A DNA stretch of 35,750 nucleotides from a virus (taxonomy: Duplodnaviria > Heunggongvirae > Uroviricota > Caudoviricetes), in the IMG/VR virus record IMGVR_UViG_3300044614_000224, positions 78,839 to 114,588 of that record; one strand, 5' to 3'. The notes beneath the pieces were generated by a model, which was not told the DNA's origin, searched no databases, and saw only the letters and a program-made list of their open reading frames with translations. This document shows positions 13,745-19,657 of the stretch, in pieces; positions within the stretch are counted from its first letter, which is position 1, and every line of letters begins with the position of its first letter. The translations under genes and the position numbers were made by a program.

Positions 13745-14989
13745 TTATAAATTCACCTTACTTCCTACCACTGCAAAGAACAGTGCAGGTTGATCAGGAT
13801 TGGTACTCAAACTTGTTCTTATTCCAAGGTTCACCTTGAATCTTTTTGTTATAGAATAGTCCACACTAGCACCTGTTAGGAATCCCATGTCTTCACTTAC
13901 TAAGAATTCTTTTTGCTTAGTAGCATAAGTGACTGGGCTTCCAGATATGTACAAGTCTGGGCTAATTGTAATTCTTCTGTTAATAGGGAAGGGTTTAGTA
14001 TAGAACAGTAACAACGAATGTGTTATGTTGTATTGCTTCTTTCCCTCTGCATACTCAGAGTTATTAACACTCACGGTGAGGTTAGCTCCTGTAACACCCC
14101 ATTTACCCATAGGATAGATGTAAGCATAGGTTGCAAACCCAAACATGCTACCAAATGCATAAGCAACAGTAACACCGTAGTTATTTAAGCTCTGTAGTTT
14201 ACCACCATCGAAATTCATCTTGGTGTATCTGCCTGATAGGGCAAACTGTTTTAAGTTGCTCCAGACCATTCCTGTAACTCCCCAAGACATATCACCTGCC
14301 ATAGAGCTCTGTGATATACCTCCTGTAGCAATAACATTTATAGACCTATCTAAACTTTGTCCTCCTGTGAAATCAGAATTGAATAGTATAGGGTTAACTC
14401 TTGCTTGAGCTTTACCTCCAGATTTAGAAGAGGACTTACCCCCTCCCCCCTTACTTTCAGATTTAGATTCTGATTTGGATTCCCCTGATGAGCTTTCAGA
14501 AGAGCTAGATTCAGAACTGCTTGATTCTGAGGAACTTGAGCTTGAACTCTCTGAGCTTCCACCACCACTGGTAGAAGCAGAGCTAGAACTAGCAGCAGAA
14601 CTACTAGCAGAACTAGCTGCTGCACTTGCAGCTGAGGAACTAGCTGAGGAAGCAGCACTTGATGCTGCAGCACTCACTGCAGTAGAAACAGCAGATGCTG
14701 TAACTTGAGTAGCAGTGGCAGCAGTCTGAGCCACAGAGCAAGGAGAAAGTTTTCTATATTCCTCGTAAACTTGGTTAATCCACGTCTGGAAAACCCCAGA
14801 ACTAACATCAGCAGCAGTAAAAGTCCTATGCTTATTATAAAAAATAACAGTAGTACTGCCAGTGATAGGGATGCTAAAAACAGTAACAAGTTTCGTACAG
14901 GGGTCAGTGAATGTCTGGATGATCGTTTGAGAATATCCATATATTGGTAGTATTACTACGACAATCAAAGAAATTATAAACTTCTTCAT
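13745..14989 (-). CDS. Secreted protein with a Ser/Ala/Glu low-complexity linker and a putative C-terminal outer-membrane beta-barrel
   Basis: Signal peptide (YGYS|QT); about 100-aa S/A/E/K linker; C-terminal amphipathic aromatic-rich beta strands. Confidence 0.65.
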   Translation of the reverse strand: MKKFIISLIVVVILPIYGYSQTIIQTFTDPCTKLVTVFSIPITGSTTVIFYNKHRTFTAADVSSGVFQTWINQVYEEYRKLSPCSVAQTAATATQVTASAVSTAVSAAASSAASSASSSAASAAASSASSSAASSSSASTSGGGSSESSSSSSSESSSSESSSSESSSGESKSESKSESKGGGGKSSSKSGGKAQARVNPILFNSDFTGGQSLDRSINVIATGGISQSSMAGDMSWGVTGMVWSNLKQFALSGRYTKMNFDGGKLQSLNNYGVTVAYAFGSMFGFATYAYIYPMGKWGVTGANLTVSVNNSEYAEGKKQYNITHSLLLFYTKPFPINRRITISPDLYISGSPVTYATKQKEFLVSEDMGFLTGASVDYSITKRFKVNLGIRTSLSTNPDQPALFFAVVGSKVNL

Positions 14990-15705
14990 TACTTAGTGAA
15001 GATTCCCTTTTTAACCATACGGTCTAGGATTCTTGCACAAGCAATGTCTAAAGCCTTTTTAGTTGCTATAGAGATAGTCGATTGATTAAACTTTACTGGG
15101 TCCAGGGAAGCATCAGATAAACCACTAGTTTCCTTTGTGGTCTTTGCTTCTCCTAGTCCAGAACCAGAAAACACAACTCCTGTTTCAGCATCTGTAAACC
15201 TAACCTGCAGTCCTAGTCTTGTAACCATGAGCTGTTTTGTACCATCCTTGAGGCTGATTGACTCATCCTCTGATATAGAATAGTCATAGCATTCTATTGT
15301 TACAAAGTATTTTGCAAGGTTAATCTTACCTCTACCATCTAGTTTGTTTTCAGAAATACCAGCTTGGCTAGCTTGGAACTGCTTAACCATTCTGTTCTTA
15401 ATCTCTGTTTTATCTTCTGTAAACTTGAATCTGTTTAGATTCTCTAGGTATTCCATAGATATGTTAGCCACACCTAGTCCTACACGCTTCTCTTTAAGTT
15501 CAGGATAGAGCTCATACATCTCATCGTTAATTCCACACTTAAGAATCTGTATAGGGATTTGAGGTCCATCATAATCCAGGAAGCTTGAAATATCTATAGC
15601 CTTCTCAAAGCTAGCCTTGTATTGCTCCGTAGAGGTTTTAGCTAGTTGAGCCTGTAACAAATTTATATATAAAAATGTTACAAGGACCAGTAGTAATCTC
15701 TTCAT
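14989..15705 (-). CDS. CsgG-like protein (curli secretion channel family)
   Basis: Signal peptide (LLQA|QL); GLGVANISMEYL..LNRF, AKYFVTIECYDY and RLGLQVRFTDAETG..FSGSGLGEA match the CsgG-family pattern as I recall it. Confidence 0.65.
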   Translation of the reverse strand: MKRLLLVLVTFLYINLLQAQLAKTSTEQYKASFEKAIDISSFLDYDGPQIPIQILKCGINDEMYELYPELKEKRVGLGVANISMEYLENLNRFKFTEDKTEIKNRMVKQFQASQAGISENKLDGRGKINLAKYFVTIECYDYSISEDESISLKDGTKQLMVTRLGLQVRFTDAETGVVFSGSGLGEAKTTKETSGLSDASLDPVKFNQSTISIATKKALDIACARILDRMVKKGIFTK

Positions 15706-17319: not shown

Positions 17320-19016
17320 TAGAAATTATTATAGCCTGTTAATTTAATAGTTGTTGTGTTTAGTTTTACACCTAGCTGATTACCCTTGTTATCAGAAGCA
17401 TCTAAGTTAGATGTAATCTTGATAGCTGAGTTGATATCTAGTCCACTCTTAAGTGTAGAGAACACCAGCTTGAAAGGAGTGAGATCTTTTCCTGTATATG
17501 GAGTTTTTAATTCTCTATCTACAGCACCAAACTTAATACGTCCATCATGGTTGTTTACAAACACTATCCATGTAGGAACATCACATTTGATAGATTCAAA
17601 CTTCACCTTGGTTGGATCATATACAAACTCAAATTGTAAGCCTGATAGATTAGCTCCATTAGTATTTATATTCACTGGAATAGTAAACTCATCACTGGTA
17701 AGTGTTAGGTTGTTTAAGCTAACATCTACATCAGGTAGATTATCATTAGGTGTATTAACAAACGTAGAGAATGTAGTTACTGTCTGAGCTTGTGTTCTAA
17801 TTGAACTGTGTGATCTATTAATGTCTCCAGGGACTAAGTAACAGATGCTCAATGGTTTAGCTACATTACTTGTTCTGAAATTCACTGTATACTTATCTGT
17901 AACAGCTTTCCAAGATGTAGAAGATAAGCTATCATACGTAGCACTTAGAAATGCAGGAAGGTTTGTTAATGTCTGACCAGAAATAGGTCTAAAGATTGTA
18001 TCAGCTCCTACAGCCTGTGCAAATAATGCTGTTACATCTCCACCATCTAATGTTCTATTGTTGTTAACATCAGCTGCCATATACCCAATACCAGAAGCAA
18101 TATTGCTGTTGGTAAATGTACCATCCAAGTTTTGCTTCATGAATTCTGAAACAGCAGCTGTATAGTCACTTACAGTGATTGCTTTATTAAGCATTGCTGG
18201 AATACTATCTGAAACCACGTTTACATAAATCTTATAAGCTGTATTAGGAAGCAACTCACTACCAAGAGTGAATGAACCATTAGCAGCTGGTGTAACTGTA
18301 GCTCTTAATATGTTTGTAGCTGAGTCAACAAATACCAATCTAGGTTGCTGTCCTCCTGTTAGACCAGTGCTTAACTTTAGTTCCCCATTAACAAGAGCAT
18401 TAGCCACTGGTGTTAGCCCTACCCAAGCTGAGTTAGGTTTAGGCATTCTTGTTTCATAATATGTTCCTCCATAATTACCACTGAATGCTTGAGCAAAGTT
18501 GTAATAGATAGAGTCATATGCAAAACCTGCAGCCACTTGCTCCACTCTAAATCTAATGTTACAGAATGTACCATCTACTAAGTCTGCACTTGATACAGCC
18601 CATATACGATTGATAGCTTTACCACTAGTTGCACTATATCCATAGCTTAGATTGTTAGAGTTAGTTTGACTAGACTCTGTTGTATTCTGTGCAGTTCTGT
18701 TTAGGAAGTAGCCAGGGTAGTATTGATTCTGATAAGACGTCTGTGCTCCTTGAGGAACAGCATTACCAAATGTTAAGTCTATCATATTGATAGCTGACAT
18801 CTGGTGTTGGAAGTCTAGGTAGAAAGAGCGTACAGGTTTACCTGCAGCTGCTTTATATACTAACGACACTTGTACAGTGTCACCTTTCTTAATAGCTCCA
18901 CCATTGATGTTGGTACCAGCAACATTAGGAATTAGCTTTAATTCAGGATTTTGTCCATAAGATGATGTCACAAATATTGTAAAAAGTGTGACAAAAAATA
19001 ATAGTTTTTTTATCAT
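17319..19016 (-). CDS. Secreted cohesin-like / dockerin-like / cohesin protein
   Basis: Signal peptide (SSYG|QN); dockerin Ca-loop AADVNNNRTLDGGD and GDINRS; C-terminal cohesin pattern FTIPVNI...LSGLQFEFVYDPTKVKF; N-terminal GDTVQVSL...FYLDFQH cohesin-like domain. Confidence 0.7.
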   Translation of the reverse strand: MIKKLLFFVTLFTIFVTSSYGQNPELKLIPNVAGTNINGGAIKKGDTVQVSLVYKAAAGKPVRSFYLDFQHQMSAINMIDLTFGNAVPQGAQTSYQNQYYPGYFLNRTAQNTTESSQTNSNNLSYGYSATSGKAINRIWAVSSADLVDGTFCNIRFRVEQVAAGFAYDSIYYNFAQAFSGNYGGTYYETRMPKPNSAWVGLTPVANALVNGELKLSTGLTGGQQPRLVFVDSATNILRATVTPAANGSFTLGSELLPNTAYKIYVNVVSDSIPAMLNKAITVSDYTAAVSEFMKQNLDGTFTNSNIASGIGYMAADVNNNRTLDGGDVTALFAQAVGADTIFRPISGQTLTNLPAFLSATYDSLSSTSWKAVTDKYTVNFRTSNVAKPLSICYLVPGDINRSHSSIRTQAQTVTTFSTFVNTPNDNLPDVDVSLNNLTLTSDEFTIPVNINTNGANLSGLQFEFVYDPTKVKFESIKCDVPTWIVFVNNHDGRIKFGAVDRELKTPYTGKDLTPFKLVFSTLKSGLDINSAIKITSNLDASDNKGNQLGVKLNTTTIKLTGYNNF

Positions 19017-19657
19017 AACAGTTTGTTTACCAATGAGTTAGAAGCTTTCTTTAAAGCAGAACTTAAGTTTTGTTGGTTAAACTTACCGCCTTCATCTATC
19101 AATAAAGTGGACATACTTGTTTCATCCGCAGACTCCTCAACAGTAGCTTTTTTAATAACTTTACCATCTCTAATAATTGATCCAGATAATCTAATAACTA
19201 CTGATTCCTTTTCTTTGTGGAATACAGATAGTTGTGAACTGTTCTTTAACACATCCAGATACACAATGTCTGCTGTAATTTGTAAACTAGCAGAAGGGTC
19301 AATAGAATAATCCTTATCCTGTAACACTTCTTCTATCACATTCTTTACACCAAACTCTAGGTTTCTGTTACCAGCTAACACCCCTACCTTCACTTTATTA
19401 GTGATAGCACCAATGCTTATTTTGTTAGACTGTTCGTAGTAGATGTTACCTGGACTGTTCTTAAACCTACCATCAAATTTCCATGTAAGTTGATTGACTA
19501 TGTTTGTAATCTTCTCATGCTGGTTTGTAAACTCCAGATATAAGAAGAATAACTGTGTGCCTAAAGCACAGAAAATAAAAATCATCACACCATAGAGAAA
19601 AACTAAGAATAGTTTTTGCCCTATGTATGTGCCAATGCTTGCTAATTTTGTCCCCAT
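19013..19657 (-). CDS. Membrane-anchored CsgG-like paralogue
   Basis: N-terminal TM; FGVKNVIEEVL and KFNQQNLSSALKKA align with LGVANISMEYL and KFNQSTISIATKKA of 14989..15705. Confidence 0.55.
   Translation of the reverse strand: MGTKLASIGTYIGQKLFLVFLYGVMIFIFCALGTQLFFLYLEFTNQHEKITNIVNQLTWKFDGRFKNSPGNIYYEQSNKISIGAITNKVKVGVLAGNRNLEFGVKNVIEEVLQDKDYSIDPSASLQITADIVYLDVLKNSSQLSVFHKEKESVVIRLSGSIIRDGKVIKKATVEESADETSMSTLLIDEGGKFNQQNLSSALKKASNSLVNKLL

What the first reader, a model, noticed from the sequence alone, without database searches (positions are those of the whole stretch)
13745..19657. Phage-encoded envelope cassette: two CsgG-like paralogues, cohesin-dockerin protein, beta-barrel and small membrane proteins
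Seen: eight contiguous, mostly overlapping genes whose products all carry signal peptides or TMs. The two CsgG-like proteins share G-V-x-N-[IV]-x-x-E-x-L and KFNQ..[LI]S.A.KKA blocks. Three signal peptides end before a Gln (Bacteroidota Q-rule). The cassette directly follows the lysis genes, and I found no intervening full promoter. Known: CsgG forms the outer-membrane pore of curli (type VIII) secretion, and cohesin-dockerin pairs are Ca-dependent assembly modules. Inference: an undescribed phage-built outer-membrane complex for secretion or surface display, superinfection exclusion, cell aggregation or assisted lysis.
Basis: partly seen in the sequence, partly recalled or inferred. Interest (0 to 1): 0.82.

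Follow-up and report, generated by a model that had tools for sequence, protein, structure and literature searches.

The report
Phage-encoded host cell-envelope protein cassette
A lake-water phage of Flavobacterium-type bacteria carries eight linked genes whose products all go to the host's membranes, periplasm or surface; the block recurs in hundreds of related phage contigs and one protein is a relative of the curli pore CsgG, but its purpose is untested.

Summary
Eight co-oriented minus-strand genes (13745-19657) follow a GH19 endolysin, and each product carries a signal peptide, lipobox or membrane segment. The order p214-p565-p125-p99-p196-p72-p238-p414 recurs in most of 80 related viral contigs. 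A rearranged core occurs in Flavobacterium phage immuto and in marine phages.

- **p238** is a divergent, non-lipidated CsgG-family protein. Its distant relatives hit Pfam CsgG, and its model matches CsgG with Z 12.6. It has no second membrane hairpin, and the first is charged, so a curli-type pore is doubtful.
- **p214** has the same CsgG/PelC/LptE fold and the same two motif blocks. Profile comparison does not prove paralogy.
- **p565** has a true cohesin. Its "dockerin" is only one conserved calcium loop.
- **p414** is probably an outer-membrane barrel on a serine-rich stalk.

It is not a captured host operon. I found no CsgF and no close Flavobacteriaceae homologue.

Best reading (about 0.5): a phage-built envelope complex that remodels the infected cell's surface, giving exclusion or adhesion rather than curli-type secretion or lysis.

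This scan has flagged the same module on other DNA (50 notes, at least 43 genomes). Phage csgG/csgF clusters are already published for pelagimyophages.

The parts
19013..19657 (-). p214: inner-membrane-anchored protein. The N-terminal membrane segment is variable. The periplasmic domain (aa 74-214) has the CsgG/PelC/LptE/FlgT fold.
   Evidence: 3769 homologues, some carrying Pfam Lipoprotein_16/YajG. The AF2 model has pLDDT 64. VIA scores are tied: CsgG Z 12.4, PelC 11.9, FlgT 11.7, LptE 11.4. More distant phages have a cleavable signal peptide in place of the anchor.
17319..19016 (-). p565: exported protein with a Q-rule signal peptide. It has a weak N-terminal cohesin-like region, one conserved EF-hand/dockerin-like calcium loop near aa 315, and a C-terminal cohesin ending in an invariant GY(N/K)NF.
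   Evidence: Pfam Cohesin scores 35.5 bits against a cut-off of 24.1 at aa 442-558. The N-terminal region scores only E 0.0045, and there is no Dockerin hit. The calcium loop is conserved in more than 40 homologues. Homologues in L083 and L089 add a true T9SS sorting domain (Pfam Por_Secre_tail, 30.8 and 44.5 bits).
16942..17319 (-). p125: small lipoprotein with an Ig-like domain that resembles a T9SS sorting domain below threshold. It may be the partner or anchor of p565.
   Evidence: The lipobox is read directly. Por_Secre_tail scores 17.9 bits against a cut-off of 27, and TIGR04183 scores 16.5 against 23. jackhmmer finds 95 small homologues but not the fused sorting domains. In the examples read, loci with two cohesin proteins have two such lipoproteins, and loci with a fused sorting domain have none.
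16638..16937 (-). p99: inner-membrane-anchored protein with a Pro/Ala/Lys-rich periplasmic tail. The tail ends in a conserved acidic motif and a terminal Trp.
   Evidence: Read directly. Present in 75 of 80 loci, in immuto gene 16, and in L025, L033, L023, L044 and L089, all with the same C-terminal motif.
16499..16636 (-). Unannotated 45-aa, very basic ORF in the 102-nt 'gap' between p99 and p196.
   Evidence: tblastn finds it at the same place in L003-L005, L026, L008 and L012, and elsewhere within the cassette in other loci.
15945..16535 (-). p196: inner-membrane protein with two membrane segments. Its charged C-terminal tail carries a CxxC...CxxC motif.
   Evidence: Read directly. There is a weak phrog_9990 hit (E 1.7e-4). 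Present in 67 of 80 loci.
15702..15920 (-). p72: small protein with two membrane segments, found only in near relatives.
   Evidence: Read directly. Present in 35 of 80 loci.
14989..15705 (-). p238: periplasmic, non-lipidated CsgG-family protein. It is the most conserved member of the cassette.
   Evidence: 5794 homologues; the top 120 are 81-95% identical. 16 of 37 aligned relatives hit Pfam CsgG, best E 1.9e-17. The family profile hits E. coli CsgG at E 4e-4. The AF2 model has pLDDT 82.6. Foldseek matches CsgG at E 4e-7. VIA gives Z 12.6, rmsd 3.3 A, 179 residues aligned.
13745..14989 (-). p414: Q-rule signal peptide, a small N-terminal domain with two conserved Cys, a Ser/Ala/Glu-rich stalk of about 110 aa, and a C-terminal domain of about 220 aa that is probably an outer-membrane beta-barrel.
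   Evidence: 614 homologues of the C-terminal domain. Alternating hydrophobicity covers 12.8% of positions against 3.7 +/- 2.3% in shuffles, and the composition is rich in Gly, Ser, Thr, Asn and aromatic residues with no Cys. Language-model neighbours include OMP_b-brl, KdgM and Porin_O_P clusters (0.93-0.95; a lead only). The immuto homologue ends in Phe. No structure model was made.
19832..20449 (-). GH19 endolysin directly upstream. It is context, not part of the cassette.
   Evidence: phrog_181 at E 1e-71, and Pfam Glyco_hydro_19 at 31.6 bits.
22004..22035 (-). Bacteroidota-type promoter consensus. It is the nearest one upstream of the lysis genes and the cassette on this strand.
   Evidence: Pattern search.

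Best explanation
The cassette is a conserved phage module that builds a multi-protein assembly in the envelope of the infected Bacteroidota cell and changes that cell's surface. It is not a curli-type secretion system and not the lysis machinery.

**Shown**
- Every product has a Sec, lipoprotein or membrane-anchor signal of the Bacteroidota type.
- p238 is a CsgG-family protein that has lost the lipid anchor.
- p214 has the same fold on an inner-membrane anchor.
- p565 carries a cohesin.
- The genes travel together in hundreds of phage contigs.

**Inferred**
- p414 is inserted into the outer membrane as a barrel, with its small disulfide-bonded N-domain on a long serine-rich stalk.
- p238 oligomerises into a ring under the outer membrane and docks on that barrel, as PelC does on PelB and LptE does in LptD.
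- p214 and p99 (an inner-membrane anchor, an extended tail and a conserved terminal acidic-Trp peptide) tie this ring to the inner membrane.
- p565 is delivered to the cell surface. In relatives whose cohesin protein carries a sorting domain, the host type IX system does this. In this clade the paired lipoprotein p125 holds it.
- On the surface, the cohesin and calcium-loop modules of p565 self-associate or bind surface partners.

**Likely net effect:** a masked or cross-linked cell surface. This would stop further phage adsorption to infected cells and debris (exclusion), or hold neighbouring cells close (capture).

The extreme conservation of p238 fits a ring with many interfaces, or contact with a conserved host machine.
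For: - **Export signals** on all eight products. They follow the Q-rule described for Bacteroidetes signal peptidase I substrates (PMC5837995).
- **Synteny** in most of 80 viral loci: p238 in 80, p414 in 77, p99 in 75, p565 in 69, p196 in 67, p214 in 66.
- **A rearranged core** (cohesin, p99, p238, p414, p214-like) is present in cultured Flavobacterium phage immuto. The cohesin, p99, p196 and p238 genes also occur in marine TARA contigs.
- **p238 is CsgG-family:**
- **p214 has the same fold class:**. It shares the two family motifs at equivalent positions.
- **The fold class has precedents as ring or plug partners of outer-membrane barrels and as an exclusion protein.** PelC/PelBC, LptDE and decameric TraT all appear among the structural matches.
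- **Cellular relatives of p238 sit in a recurrent three-gene unit:** a CsgG-like protein, a CsgG-like lipoprotein, and a 323-416-aa protein with a signal peptide that ends in Phe (a C-terminal Phe is typical of outer-membrane barrel proteins; stated from general knowledge). The full trio is seen in 11 of 20 loci, and the lipoprotein followed by the Phe-ending protein in 14. The two CsgG-like genes are true paralogues (hhalign 99.5%). So 'two CsgG-fold proteins plus a putative barrel' is an old design.
- **The cohesin proteins of relatives carry a genuine T9SS sorting domain**, so they are surface or secreted proteins.
- **p238 is far more conserved than its neighbours.** At rank 120 of its homologue list identity is about 84%, against about 60% for p214 and 54% for p414. 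Within 36 complete loci the medians are 88% for p238 and 71% for the endolysin.
- **Location in relatives:** in immuto and TARA relatives the module lies among replication genes, not lysis genes.
- **Receptor background:** published work shows that Flavobacterium phage resistance maps to gliding and T9SS surface genes (10.1101/2020.10.02.323337; PMC9804748). Surface masking would therefore plausibly block adsorption.
Against: - No physical contact between any two products has been shown.
- The barrel nature of p414 is indirect. No model was made, and there is no Pfam or PDB profile hit.
- The p214 model has low confidence (pLDDT 64).
- Homology of p214 and p414 to the cellular trio is not detectable (hhalign 2.4% and 11.5%).
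- In this clade the cassette shares a predicted transcription unit with the endolysin. That fits a late, lysis-linked role as well as it fits surface remodelling.
- Nothing indicates which host structure, if any, is masked.
- The conservation ranking within loci is biased, because the loci were chosen by similarity to p238.
Confidence: 0.5

Rival explanations
1. Lysis accessory. The cassette is the outer-membrane-disruption step of lysis (a functional analogue of spanins) for Bacteroidota phages, which have no recognised spanins. Inner-membrane-anchored p99 and p214 and the outer-membrane components p125 and p414 would bridge the periplasm and break the outer membrane once the endolysin has cut the wall.
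For: - The cassette starts 175 nt after the GH19 endolysin.
- No Bacteroidota-type promoter lies between them.
- The endolysin lies within 8 kb upstream in 43 of 80 loci, and on the same strand in 34.
- The components are predicted to sit in both membranes, some with extended periplasmic tails.
Against: - In 9 loci the nearby endolysin is on the opposite strand. In the more distant phages it is not within 8 kb.
- In immuto and TARA contigs the module sits beside RNR, helicase, recombinase and nuclease genes.
- Eight proteins, including a cohesin surface protein and an ultra-conserved CsgG-family protein, are far more than known spanins need.
- A separate lipoprotein (20598-21215) and small membrane proteins already flank the endolysin.
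Confidence: 0.15
2. A real secretion channel. p238, alone or with p214, forms a CsgG-like oligomeric outer-membrane pore (a phage type VIII-like system). It would export an unfolded cargo such as p565, the serine-rich part of p414, or a nuclease. This is what the first reader proposed.
For: - CsgG is the best structural match, and it stands above PelC and LptE (Z 12.6 against 9.9 and 8.7).
- The model has one very long beta-hairpin (residues 133-172) in the place of CsgG's first membrane hairpin.
- Relatives are annotated CsgG/HfaB.
- Secreted nucleases with signal peptides sit inside the module in relatives.
Against: - The hairpin carries a conserved acidic run. 7 of its 21 tip residues are charged.
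- The stretch that corresponds to the second CsgG membrane hairpin (known from the solved CsgG structures; recalled, not measured here) is a polar loop of about 20 residues containing Pro, with low confidence.
- The phage clade has lost the lipobox Cys that its cellular relatives keep.
- p238 itself has no Pfam CsgG hit, and there is no CsgF anywhere in the 114.6-kb genome.
- Relatives whose cohesin protein has a T9SS sorting domain still keep p238 and p414, so these two are not simply the cohesin protein's export route.
Confidence: 0.15
3. Passenger operon. The block is a host operon of ordinary cellular function that the phage picked up recently, or it belongs to a misassembled or binned cellular contig.
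For: - Distant p238 relatives (28-37% identity) are chromosomal lipoproteins in Desulfobacterota, Fibrobacterota and Acidobacteriota.
- Seven closer relatives lie on contigs deposited as bacterial MAGs.
Against: - The window lies in a 114,588-bp viral record with direct terminal repeats and 100% estimated completeness.
- 512 viral-contig stretches encode a relative of p238.
- The 'MAG' contigs are short or of phage-like length and carry the same phage neighbours.
- Only 3 of 301 genomes of the family of the Flavobacterium MAG have any match. Two of these are such MAGs.
- Cellular relatives share only about 30% identity and sit in a different gene context.
Confidence: 0.03
4. Virion parts. The proteins are structural or decoration proteins of the phage particle. 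Cohesin and Ig-like domains are common on capsids and fibres.
For: - The cassette lies between the lysis genes and fibre-like genes (13070-13639).
- p565 and p125 have Ig-like and cohesin domains.
Against: - All eight carry Sec, lipoprotein or membrane signals, so they leave the cytoplasm where tailed-phage virions assemble.
- There are no PHROG structural hits.
Confidence: 0.03

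Closest known systems
CsgG, the curli (type VIII) secretion channel of E. coli (Pfam PF03783; PDB 4UV3, 6LQH, 6L7A)
   Same: p238 has the same alpha/beta fold (VIA Z 12.0-12.6, rmsd 3.3-3.7 A, 174-192 residues). It is linked by sequence through its relatives: 16 of 37 hit PF03783, and the family profile hits CsgG at E 4e-4.
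   Different: - No lipobox.
- No second membrane hairpin, and the first is acidic.
- About 40 residues shorter.
- No CsgF, CsgE or curlin-like gene found.
- The partners here are a putative barrel, a cohesin protein and inner-membrane proteins.
csgG/csgF 'curli operon' of pelagimyophages (HTVC008M group), Zaragoza-Solas et al. 2020, PMC7029224
   Same: - A lytic aquatic myophage carries a CsgG-family gene in a small conserved cluster.
- Its function is unknown.
- The authors also discuss pores, aggregation ('sibling capture') and avoidance of coinfection.
   Different: - Those genes resemble proteobacterial CsgG and CsgF closely and look like a recent transfer.
- Here CsgF is not found, the CsgG relative is highly divergent and unlipidated, the hosts are Bacteroidota, and the partners differ (cohesin protein, T9SS-type tags, stalked barrel).
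PelC-PelB (PDB 5T10, 9H80) and LptE-LptD (for example PDB 4Q35, 5IV9): a CsgG-fold lipoprotein working with an outer-membrane barrel
   Same: - Both p238 and p214 match PelC and LptE (Z 8-12).
- p238 is translationally coupled to the putative barrel p414.
- This is the working model for how the pair acts.
   Different: - No sequence relationship.
- p238 is not lipidated.
- The complex prediction gave no verdict.
- The cargo (Pel polysaccharide, LPS) has no counterpart here.
TraT, the decameric surface-exclusion lipoprotein of F-like plasmids (PDB 9FS5, 9FSM; PMC11733297)
   Same: - A mobile-element-encoded outer-membrane ring of a related fold.
- It blocks entry of a related element.
- It appears among the structural matches (Z 7.7 for p238, 10.2 for p214).
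   Different: - The scores are lower than for CsgG and within the range of general fold similarity.
- TraT is a single lipoprotein, not an eight-gene module.
Uncharacterised cellular trio: CsgG-like protein, CsgG-like lipoprotein and a 323-416-aa protein ending in Phe (Desulfuromonadaceae and other Desulfobacterota, Fibrobacter, Thermoanaerobaculia). Also the Neisseria lipoproteins NMB1124/NMB1162 and NMB1126/NMB1164.
   Same: - These hold the nearest non-phage sequence relatives of p238 (28-37% identity).
- They show the same theme of two CsgG-fold proteins next to a putative outer-membrane protein.
- NMB1126/NMB1164 is the best AlphaFold/Swiss-Prot match (E 2.5e-12).
   Different: - p214 and p414 show no detectable sequence homology to the cellular partners.
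- There are no cohesin, p99 or p196 genes.
- The function of the cellular unit is itself unknown.
- One example has a caspase-like neighbour.
Cohesin-dockerin scaffolds (cellulosome type) and T9SS cargo with C-terminal sorting domains
   Same: - p565 has a bona fide cohesin.
- Homologues in L083 and L089 have a cohesin plus Pfam Por_Secre_tail above cut-off.
   Different: - No Pfam dockerin. There is only one calcium loop instead of the duplicated pair.
- p565 itself has no sorting domain.
- p125 resembles a sorting domain only below threshold.

Membership tests
CsgG (PF03783, curli channel) | Match to the family HMM above its gathering score | tested here: not met
   p238 and p214 have no PF03783 hit at E<=1, and a six-frame scan of the whole phage genome finds none. 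The link is indirect: 16 of 37 aligned relatives of p238 match, best E 1.9e-17, and the family profile hits E. coli CsgG at E 4e-4.
CsgG (PF03783, curli channel) | CsgG alpha/beta fold | tested here: met
   p238 model (pLDDT 82.6): Foldseek top hits are CsgG at E 4e-7. VIA gives Z 12.6, rmsd 3.3 A, 179 residues, above PelC at 9.9. p214 model (pLDDT 64): CsgG Z 12.4, but tied with PelC, FlgT and LptE.
CsgG (PF03783, curli channel) | N-terminal lipobox Cys (outer-membrane lipoprotein) | tested here: not met
   p238 and all close phage homologues have a type I signal peptide ending before Gln. The 25-36% identical relatives in the alignment keep the Cys. p214 has a membrane anchor, and its Cys30 is not conserved.
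CsgG (PF03783, curli channel) | Two amphipathic membrane hairpins per subunit that build the 36-strand barrel | tested here: inconclusive
   The model has one long hairpin (133-172), but its tip is charged, with a conserved Glu-Asp-Glu run. The second hairpin is replaced by a polar, Pro-containing, low-confidence loop of about 20 residues. This rests on sequence character only, with no membrane test. The length and character of CsgG's second hairpin are recalled from the solved structures, not measured here.
CsgG (PF03783, curli channel) | Nonameric ring | not tested
No homo-oligomer model was made.
CsgG (PF03783, curli channel) | Curli partners (CsgF, CsgE, CsgA/B) in the same cluster | tested here: not met
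   PF10614 (CsgF) has no match at E<=1 in the whole 114.6-kb genome. No cassette product hits a curli family in Pfam. CsgE and CsgA/B models were not searched separately.
Cohesin (PF00963) | Match above the gathering score | tested here: met
   p565 aa 442-558: 35.5 bits against a cut-off of 24.1, and E 5e-8 on the isolated segment. The N-terminal region scores only 17.6 bits (E 0.0045).
Dockerin type I (PF00404) | Duplicated 22-residue calcium-binding segment; HMM match | tested here: not met
   No hit at E<=1 in the p565 segments or at this place in the genome scan. One 12-residue D-x-N-x-N-...-D-x-x-D loop near aa 315 is conserved in more than 40 homologues, and no second loop was seen.
T9SS C-terminal sorting domain (PF18962 / TIGR04183) | HMM match above cut-off at the C-terminus of a signal-peptide-bearing cargo | tested here: not met
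   p565 has none. p125 scores 17.9 against 27 bits and 16.5 against 23 bits, and it is a separate lipoprotein. The feature is met in the cohesin proteins of relatives L083 (30.8 bits) and L089 (44.5 bits).
Outer-membrane beta-barrel (p414 C-terminal domain) | Barrel fold; alternating strands; C-terminal aromatic signal | tested here: inconclusive
   Alternation is about 4 sd above shuffles, and the composition is OMP-like. Language-model neighbours are porin or OMP clusters. The protein ends in Leu here and in Phe in immuto. No Pfam hit (including PorP/SprF) and no PDB profile hit. No model was made.
LptE / PelC-like periplasmic partner of a barrel (p214, p238) | Fold match and physical docking to a barrel | tested here: inconclusive
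   Fold matches are Z 8-12. Docking was not established.
Two-component spanin | Inner-membrane protein with a periplasmic coiled coil, plus a small outer-membrane lipoprotein, encoded next to the endolysin | not tested
   p99 (membrane anchor with a Pro/Ala/Lys-rich tail) and p125 (lipoprotein) are adjacent. However, p125 is missing from immuto, L083 and L089. No coiled-coil analysis was run.

The most novel reading that the evidence does not exclude
The cassette is a self-contained, phage-encoded trans-envelope machine of a kind not yet described. An ultra-conserved soluble CsgG-family ring (p238) is coupled to a stalked outer-membrane barrel (p414) and tied to the inner membrane by p214 and p99. 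The machine installs and holds cohesin or lectin adhesins on the infected cell. In this way thousands of aquatic Bacteroidota phages would actively re-dress their host's surface, either to exclude competitors or to capture neighbouring host cells.
Probability: 0.2. Interest if true: 0.8.

Novelty: new variant of a known kind. Interest (0 to 1): 0.6.

Why it matters
- **Scale.** p238 alone has 5794 database relatives, and 512 viral-contig stretches encode one. It is more conserved than the endolysin. An abundant lineage of freshwater and marine Bacteroidota phages therefore invests about 6 kb in proteins that act in the host envelope, and nobody knows why.
- **What it could reveal.** If the module blocks adsorption or glues cells together, it would be a new, widespread way for lytic phages to shape competition and host encounter in dilute waters. 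It would also give a first function to the short, unlipidated branch of the CsgG family, which also occurs as an uncharacterised three-gene unit in several bacterial phyla.
- **Testability.** A cultured pair exists, phage vB_FspM_immuto and Flavobacterium sp. LMO8, so the question can be tested directly.

Tried and rejected
- **Complex prediction.** p238 (aa 21-238) with the p414 C-terminal domain (aa 196-414), both given as alignments, scored 0.00. The result is 'no answer' and counts neither for nor against binding.
- **Profile comparisons.**
  - p214 family against p238 family: 4.6% probability, only the last 32 columns aligned.
  - p214 family against the cellular CsgG-like paralogue A: 2.4%.
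  - p414 C-terminal domain against the cellular Phe-ending proteins: 11.5%, last 38 columns only.
  - Sequence homology is therefore not demonstrable for these pairs.
- **PDB sequence-profile searches.** The p214 and p414 alignments gave only chance or low-complexity hits.
- **Split T9SS cargo idea.** jackhmmer from p125 through all ORFs of the viral loci found 95 small proteins but did not reach the fused sorting domains of L083 and L089. The 'split T9SS cargo' idea stays a sub-threshold resemblance.
- **Family libraries.** Pfam, NCBIfam and PHROGs gave nothing above threshold for p238, p214, p99, p196, p72 or p414.
- **Promoter scan.** The sigma-70 promoter scan was no better than shuffles (29 found against 31.5 expected) and does not suit Bacteroidota. 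I replaced it with the TTTG/TAnnTTTG pattern.
- **Technical failures.** The search for related loci with the wide alignment A1 failed for lack of a conserved stretch; I repeated it with A3. The first DNA search was one base too long.
- **Literature.** The TraT paper (PMC11733297) mentions no link to CsgG or phages. Searches for this cassette, for immuto gene functions and for Bacteroidetes phage exclusion proteins found nothing relevant.

Full report
**Where the window lies.** The window is the last 35.75 kb of a 114,588-bp IMG/VR viral record with direct terminal repeats and 100% estimated completeness. Other genes in the window are typical of a large tailed phage:
- ribonucleotide reductase (phrog_367, E 7e-112);
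- UvsX-like recombinase;
- a fibre protein of more than 1,800 aa;
- a GH19 endolysin (phrog_181, E 1e-71).

**Checking the observation.** Eight minus-strand genes fill 13745-19657: p214, p565, p125, p99, p196, p72, p238 and p414.
- Four of the seven junctions overlap by 1 or 4 nt. The others are gaps of 4, 24 and 102 nt.
- The 102-nt 'gap' holds a conserved 45-aa basic ORF.
- Read directly from the translations: p565, p238 and p414 have type I signal peptides cleaved just before Gln. p125 has a lipobox. p214 and p99 have one membrane segment each. p196 and p72 have two each.
- Gln at the new N-terminus is the published Bacteroidetes Q-rule (PMC5837995).
- On this strand the Bacteroidota promoter consensus occurs at 22035-22004 and next at 10648-10617. 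The lysis genes, the cassette and the downstream fibre and glycosylation genes are therefore predicted to form one transcription unit. This is a consensus match, not a measurement.

**Conservation.**
- p238 has 5794 relatives at E<=1e-3 in the protein collection. The top 120 are 81-95% identical.
- 512 viral-contig stretches encode a relative.
- Across the 80 loci fetched, tblastn finds p238 in 80, p414 in 77, p99 in 75, p565 in 69, p196 in 67, p214 in 66 and p125 in 50. In most loci the order and strand match the window.
- p238 is the best-conserved member. In the 36 loci that have all seven compared genes, its median identity is 88%. The others are endolysin 71%, p414 65%, p214 61%, p99 59%, p196 57% and p565 42%.
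- That ranking is biased, because the loci were chosen by similarity to p238. The independent homologue lists agree, however. At rank 120 p238 relatives are about 84% identical, p214 relatives about 60% and p414 relatives about 54%.
- Among 50,697 deposited phage records only the Flavobacterium phage immuto isolates carry a relative (52% identity). In immuto, genes 15 to 19 are: cohesin protein, p99-like, p238-like, p414-like, p214-like.
- A marine TARA contig has a cohesin protein, p196-like, a secreted nuclease, p99-like and p238-like genes next to recombinase, exonuclease and helicase genes.
- The module is therefore old within Bacteroidota phages. It is tied to lysis genes only in the clade of this window.

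**p238.**
- It has no direct Pfam, NCBIfam or PHROG hit.
- A search of 1.84 billion representative proteins gave only 206 clusters. I aligned the full-length ones (A1).
- Sixteen of the 37 aligned sequences hit Pfam CsgG (best E 1.9e-17) and six hit LpoB.
- The A1 profile finds E. coli CsgG in the PDB at E 4e-4. Part of that score comes from the signal peptide; the score for mature chains is 0.11.
- The AlphaFold model is good (pLDDT 82.6, pTM 0.74).
- Structural matches: Foldseek puts CsgG first (E 4e-7). VIA gives CsgG Z 12.0-12.6 (rmsd 3.3-3.7 A, 174-192 residues). That is clearly above PelC (9.9), FlgT (9.0), LptE (8.7) and TraT (7.7).
- The best Swiss-Prot model match is the Neisseria lipoprotein NMB1126/NMB1164 (E 2.5e-12).
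- Differences from CsgG: the phage clade has no lipobox Cys, which the more distant relatives in the alignment keep. The single long hairpin (133-172) has a conserved acidic run and a charged tip. The stretch that corresponds to CsgG's second membrane hairpin (known from the solved structures; recalled, not measured here) is a short, polar, low-confidence loop.
- No CsgF is found anywhere in the genome.
- p238 is thus a member of the wider CsgG family in fold and descent. A curli-type pore is doubtful, though not excluded.

**p214.**
- It has 3769 relatives, and a minority carry Pfam Lipoprotein_16/YajG.
- The model is weak (pLDDT 64).
- Its periplasmic domain (aa 74-214) aligns to CsgG (Z 12.4), Cj1090c (12.1), PelC (11.9), FlgT (11.7) and LptE (11.4). 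All are tied within 1.
- Profile comparison with the p238 family aligns only the last 32 columns (probability 4.6%).
- The two shared motif blocks are the conserved family motifs of A1 (G.G..N...E.L and F.QS...A). They sit at the start of helix 1 and of the last helix in both models.
- I therefore rate real but very old paralogy as likely. It is not proven.

**p565 and p125.**
- The C-terminal cohesin of p565 is genuine (35.5 bits against a cut-off of 24.1). The N-terminal cohesin-like region is sub-threshold.
- There is no Pfam dockerin. One EF-hand-type loop near aa 315 is conserved across more than 40 homologues, and in the distant 760-aa proteins it takes the canonical D-x-D-x-N-G form.
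- In L083 and L089 the homologous protein ends in a T9SS sorting domain above the Pfam cut-off. These loci have no small lipoprotein after it.
- In this clade p565 ends at the cohesin and is followed by the lipoprotein p125. In L025, L033 and L044 two cohesin proteins are followed by two such lipoproteins.
- p125 resembles a sorting domain only below threshold. Iterated search does not connect it to the fused domains.
- A lipoprotein partner that replaces a covalent sorting tag is a reasonable idea, but it is not shown.

**p414.**
- It has an N-terminal domain of about 65 aa with two conserved Cys, a Ser/Ala/Glu-rich stalk of variable length, and a C-terminal domain of about 220 aa.
- Evidence for a barrel is indirect: alternating hydrophobicity about 4 sd above shuffles, an OMP-like composition, and language-model neighbours among porin and OMP clusters.
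- It has no Pfam or PDB profile hit.

**Cellular relatives.**
- In one genome per species (185,579 species), 28 loci encode a relative.
- The seven close relatives (44-91%) lie on MAG contigs that are short or of phage-like length (about 112, 248 and 254 kb). They carry the same phage neighbours. Some are binned under implausible taxa.
- The 21 distant relatives (28-37%) are chromosomal, mainly in Desulfobacterota, Fibrobacterota and Thermoanaerobaculia.
- In those loci the gene sits in a recurrent trio. A CsgG-like protein of about 210 aa comes first; it is a true paralogue (hhalign 99.5%). The lipoprotein comes next. A 323-416-aa protein with a signal peptide and a terminal Phe comes last (a terminal Phe is typical of outer-membrane barrel proteins; general knowledge, not tested). 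The full trio is seen in 11 of the 20 loci read, and the lipoprotein followed by the Phe-ending protein in 14. One example has a caspase-domain neighbour.
- p214 and p414 are not detectably homologous to the flanking members.
- Of 301 genomes from the family of the Flavobacterium MAG, only three match the A1 profile. Two of them are the MAGs with phage contigs.
- The cassette is therefore not a recent host capture.

**How it probably works.** The fold class of p238 and p214 is used at the inner face of the outer membrane in four ways. It forms a channel ring (CsgG). It forms a funnel on a barrel (PelC on PelB). It plugs a barrel (LptE in LptD). It forms an exclusion ring (TraT). All of these appear in the match lists.

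I combine this with four observations: coupled translation of p238 and p414, the ancient 'two CsgG-fold proteins plus putative barrel' trio, inner-membrane-anchored partners with extended tails, and surface-directed cohesin proteins. From these I infer a phage-built envelope assembly that changes the infected cell's surface.

Surface masking would matter for these phages. Published Flavobacterium phage resistance maps to gliding and T9SS surface genes (10.1101/2020.10.02.323337; PMC9804748). The localisation signals, folds and synteny are shown. Contacts, stoichiometry, timing and the phenotype are all inferred.

**Comparison with the literature.** Phage-borne csgG/csgF clusters are known from pelagimyophages. 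Their function is called a mystery, and pores, aggregation ('sibling capture') and coinfection avoidance are discussed (PMC7029224). The present cassette differs in host phylum, in lacking CsgF, in the degree of divergence and in its partners. I found no paper on it.

**Earlier notes of this scan.** Notes from this scan describe the same module in other phage genomes (50 notes in at least 43 genomes), with similar conclusions.
- the cellular trio;
- the unbiased conservation ranking of p238;
- the complementary pattern of sorting domain versus lipoprotein;
- the promoter map;
- the negative homology tests.

**Not done.** The complex prediction gave no verdict. No structure quota remained for p414, p565, p125 or p99.

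Noticed in passing
window 19688-19813 (-) and 16499-16636 (-): Two tiny, very basic ORFs (41 and 45 aa, starting MAKAK... and MAQKKKK...) sit inside or at the edge of the cassette. The 45-aa ORF is unannotated, overlaps the start of p196, and is conserved. In relatives it moves to other places within the cassette.
   Followed up: partly
window 9569-9634 (-), inside ORF 9251-9832: A Lys-rich 193-aa protein contains one canonical dockerin/EF-hand-type loop (D-L-N-K-D-G-K-I-T-K-A-D). It is the only Pfam Dockerin_1 match in the genome (16.1 bits, below the cut-off). It could be a partner for the p565 cohesin, or it could be chance.
   Followed up: no
window 20598-21215 (-): A 205-aa lipoprotein lies just upstream of the endolysin. 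It is conserved in 47 of 80 loci at 28-95% identity, has a Gly-rich, beta-like C-terminal third, and hits no family. It is a candidate outer-membrane lysis factor separate from the cassette.
   Followed up: no
L083:5050-5670, L025:10644-11246, L002 (immuto gene 12): In marine, jumbo and immuto relatives, a DNA/RNA non-specific endonuclease with a signal peptide sits inside or beside the envelope module. No counterpart was seen in this window's cassette.
   Followed up: no
L110:5466-9887 and the other cellular loci L093-L112: A recurrent bacterial three-gene unit: two CsgG-like paralogues plus a 323-416-aa protein ending in Phe. In L110 a caspase-domain protein (Peptidase_C14, E 4e-17) precedes it. 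It appears to be an uncharacterised envelope system in Desulfobacterota, Fibrobacterota and Acidobacteriota.
   Followed up: partly
L086, L091, L092 (genome contigs): Contigs that carry near-identical p238 genes are deposited in MAGs labelled Thiobacillus, Micavibrio and Sphingomonadaceae. These are most likely phage contigs binned into the wrong genomes.
   Followed up: no
L089:11513-12334 and L023:4878-5696, L044:8873-9700: Larger relatives carry extra barrel-like proteins of about 270 aa ending in F. The L089 protein is homologous to the p414 C-terminal domain (E 8e-18), so the barrel component has been duplicated in some phages.
   Followed up: partly
window 22004-22035, 10617-10648, 28342-28373 (-); 22424-22454, 28724-28753 (+): The Bacteroidota promoter consensus TTTG-N17-21-TAnnTTTG occurs 6 times in the window against 1.7 expected. 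It marks the heads of long co-directional gene blocks.
   Followed up: partly
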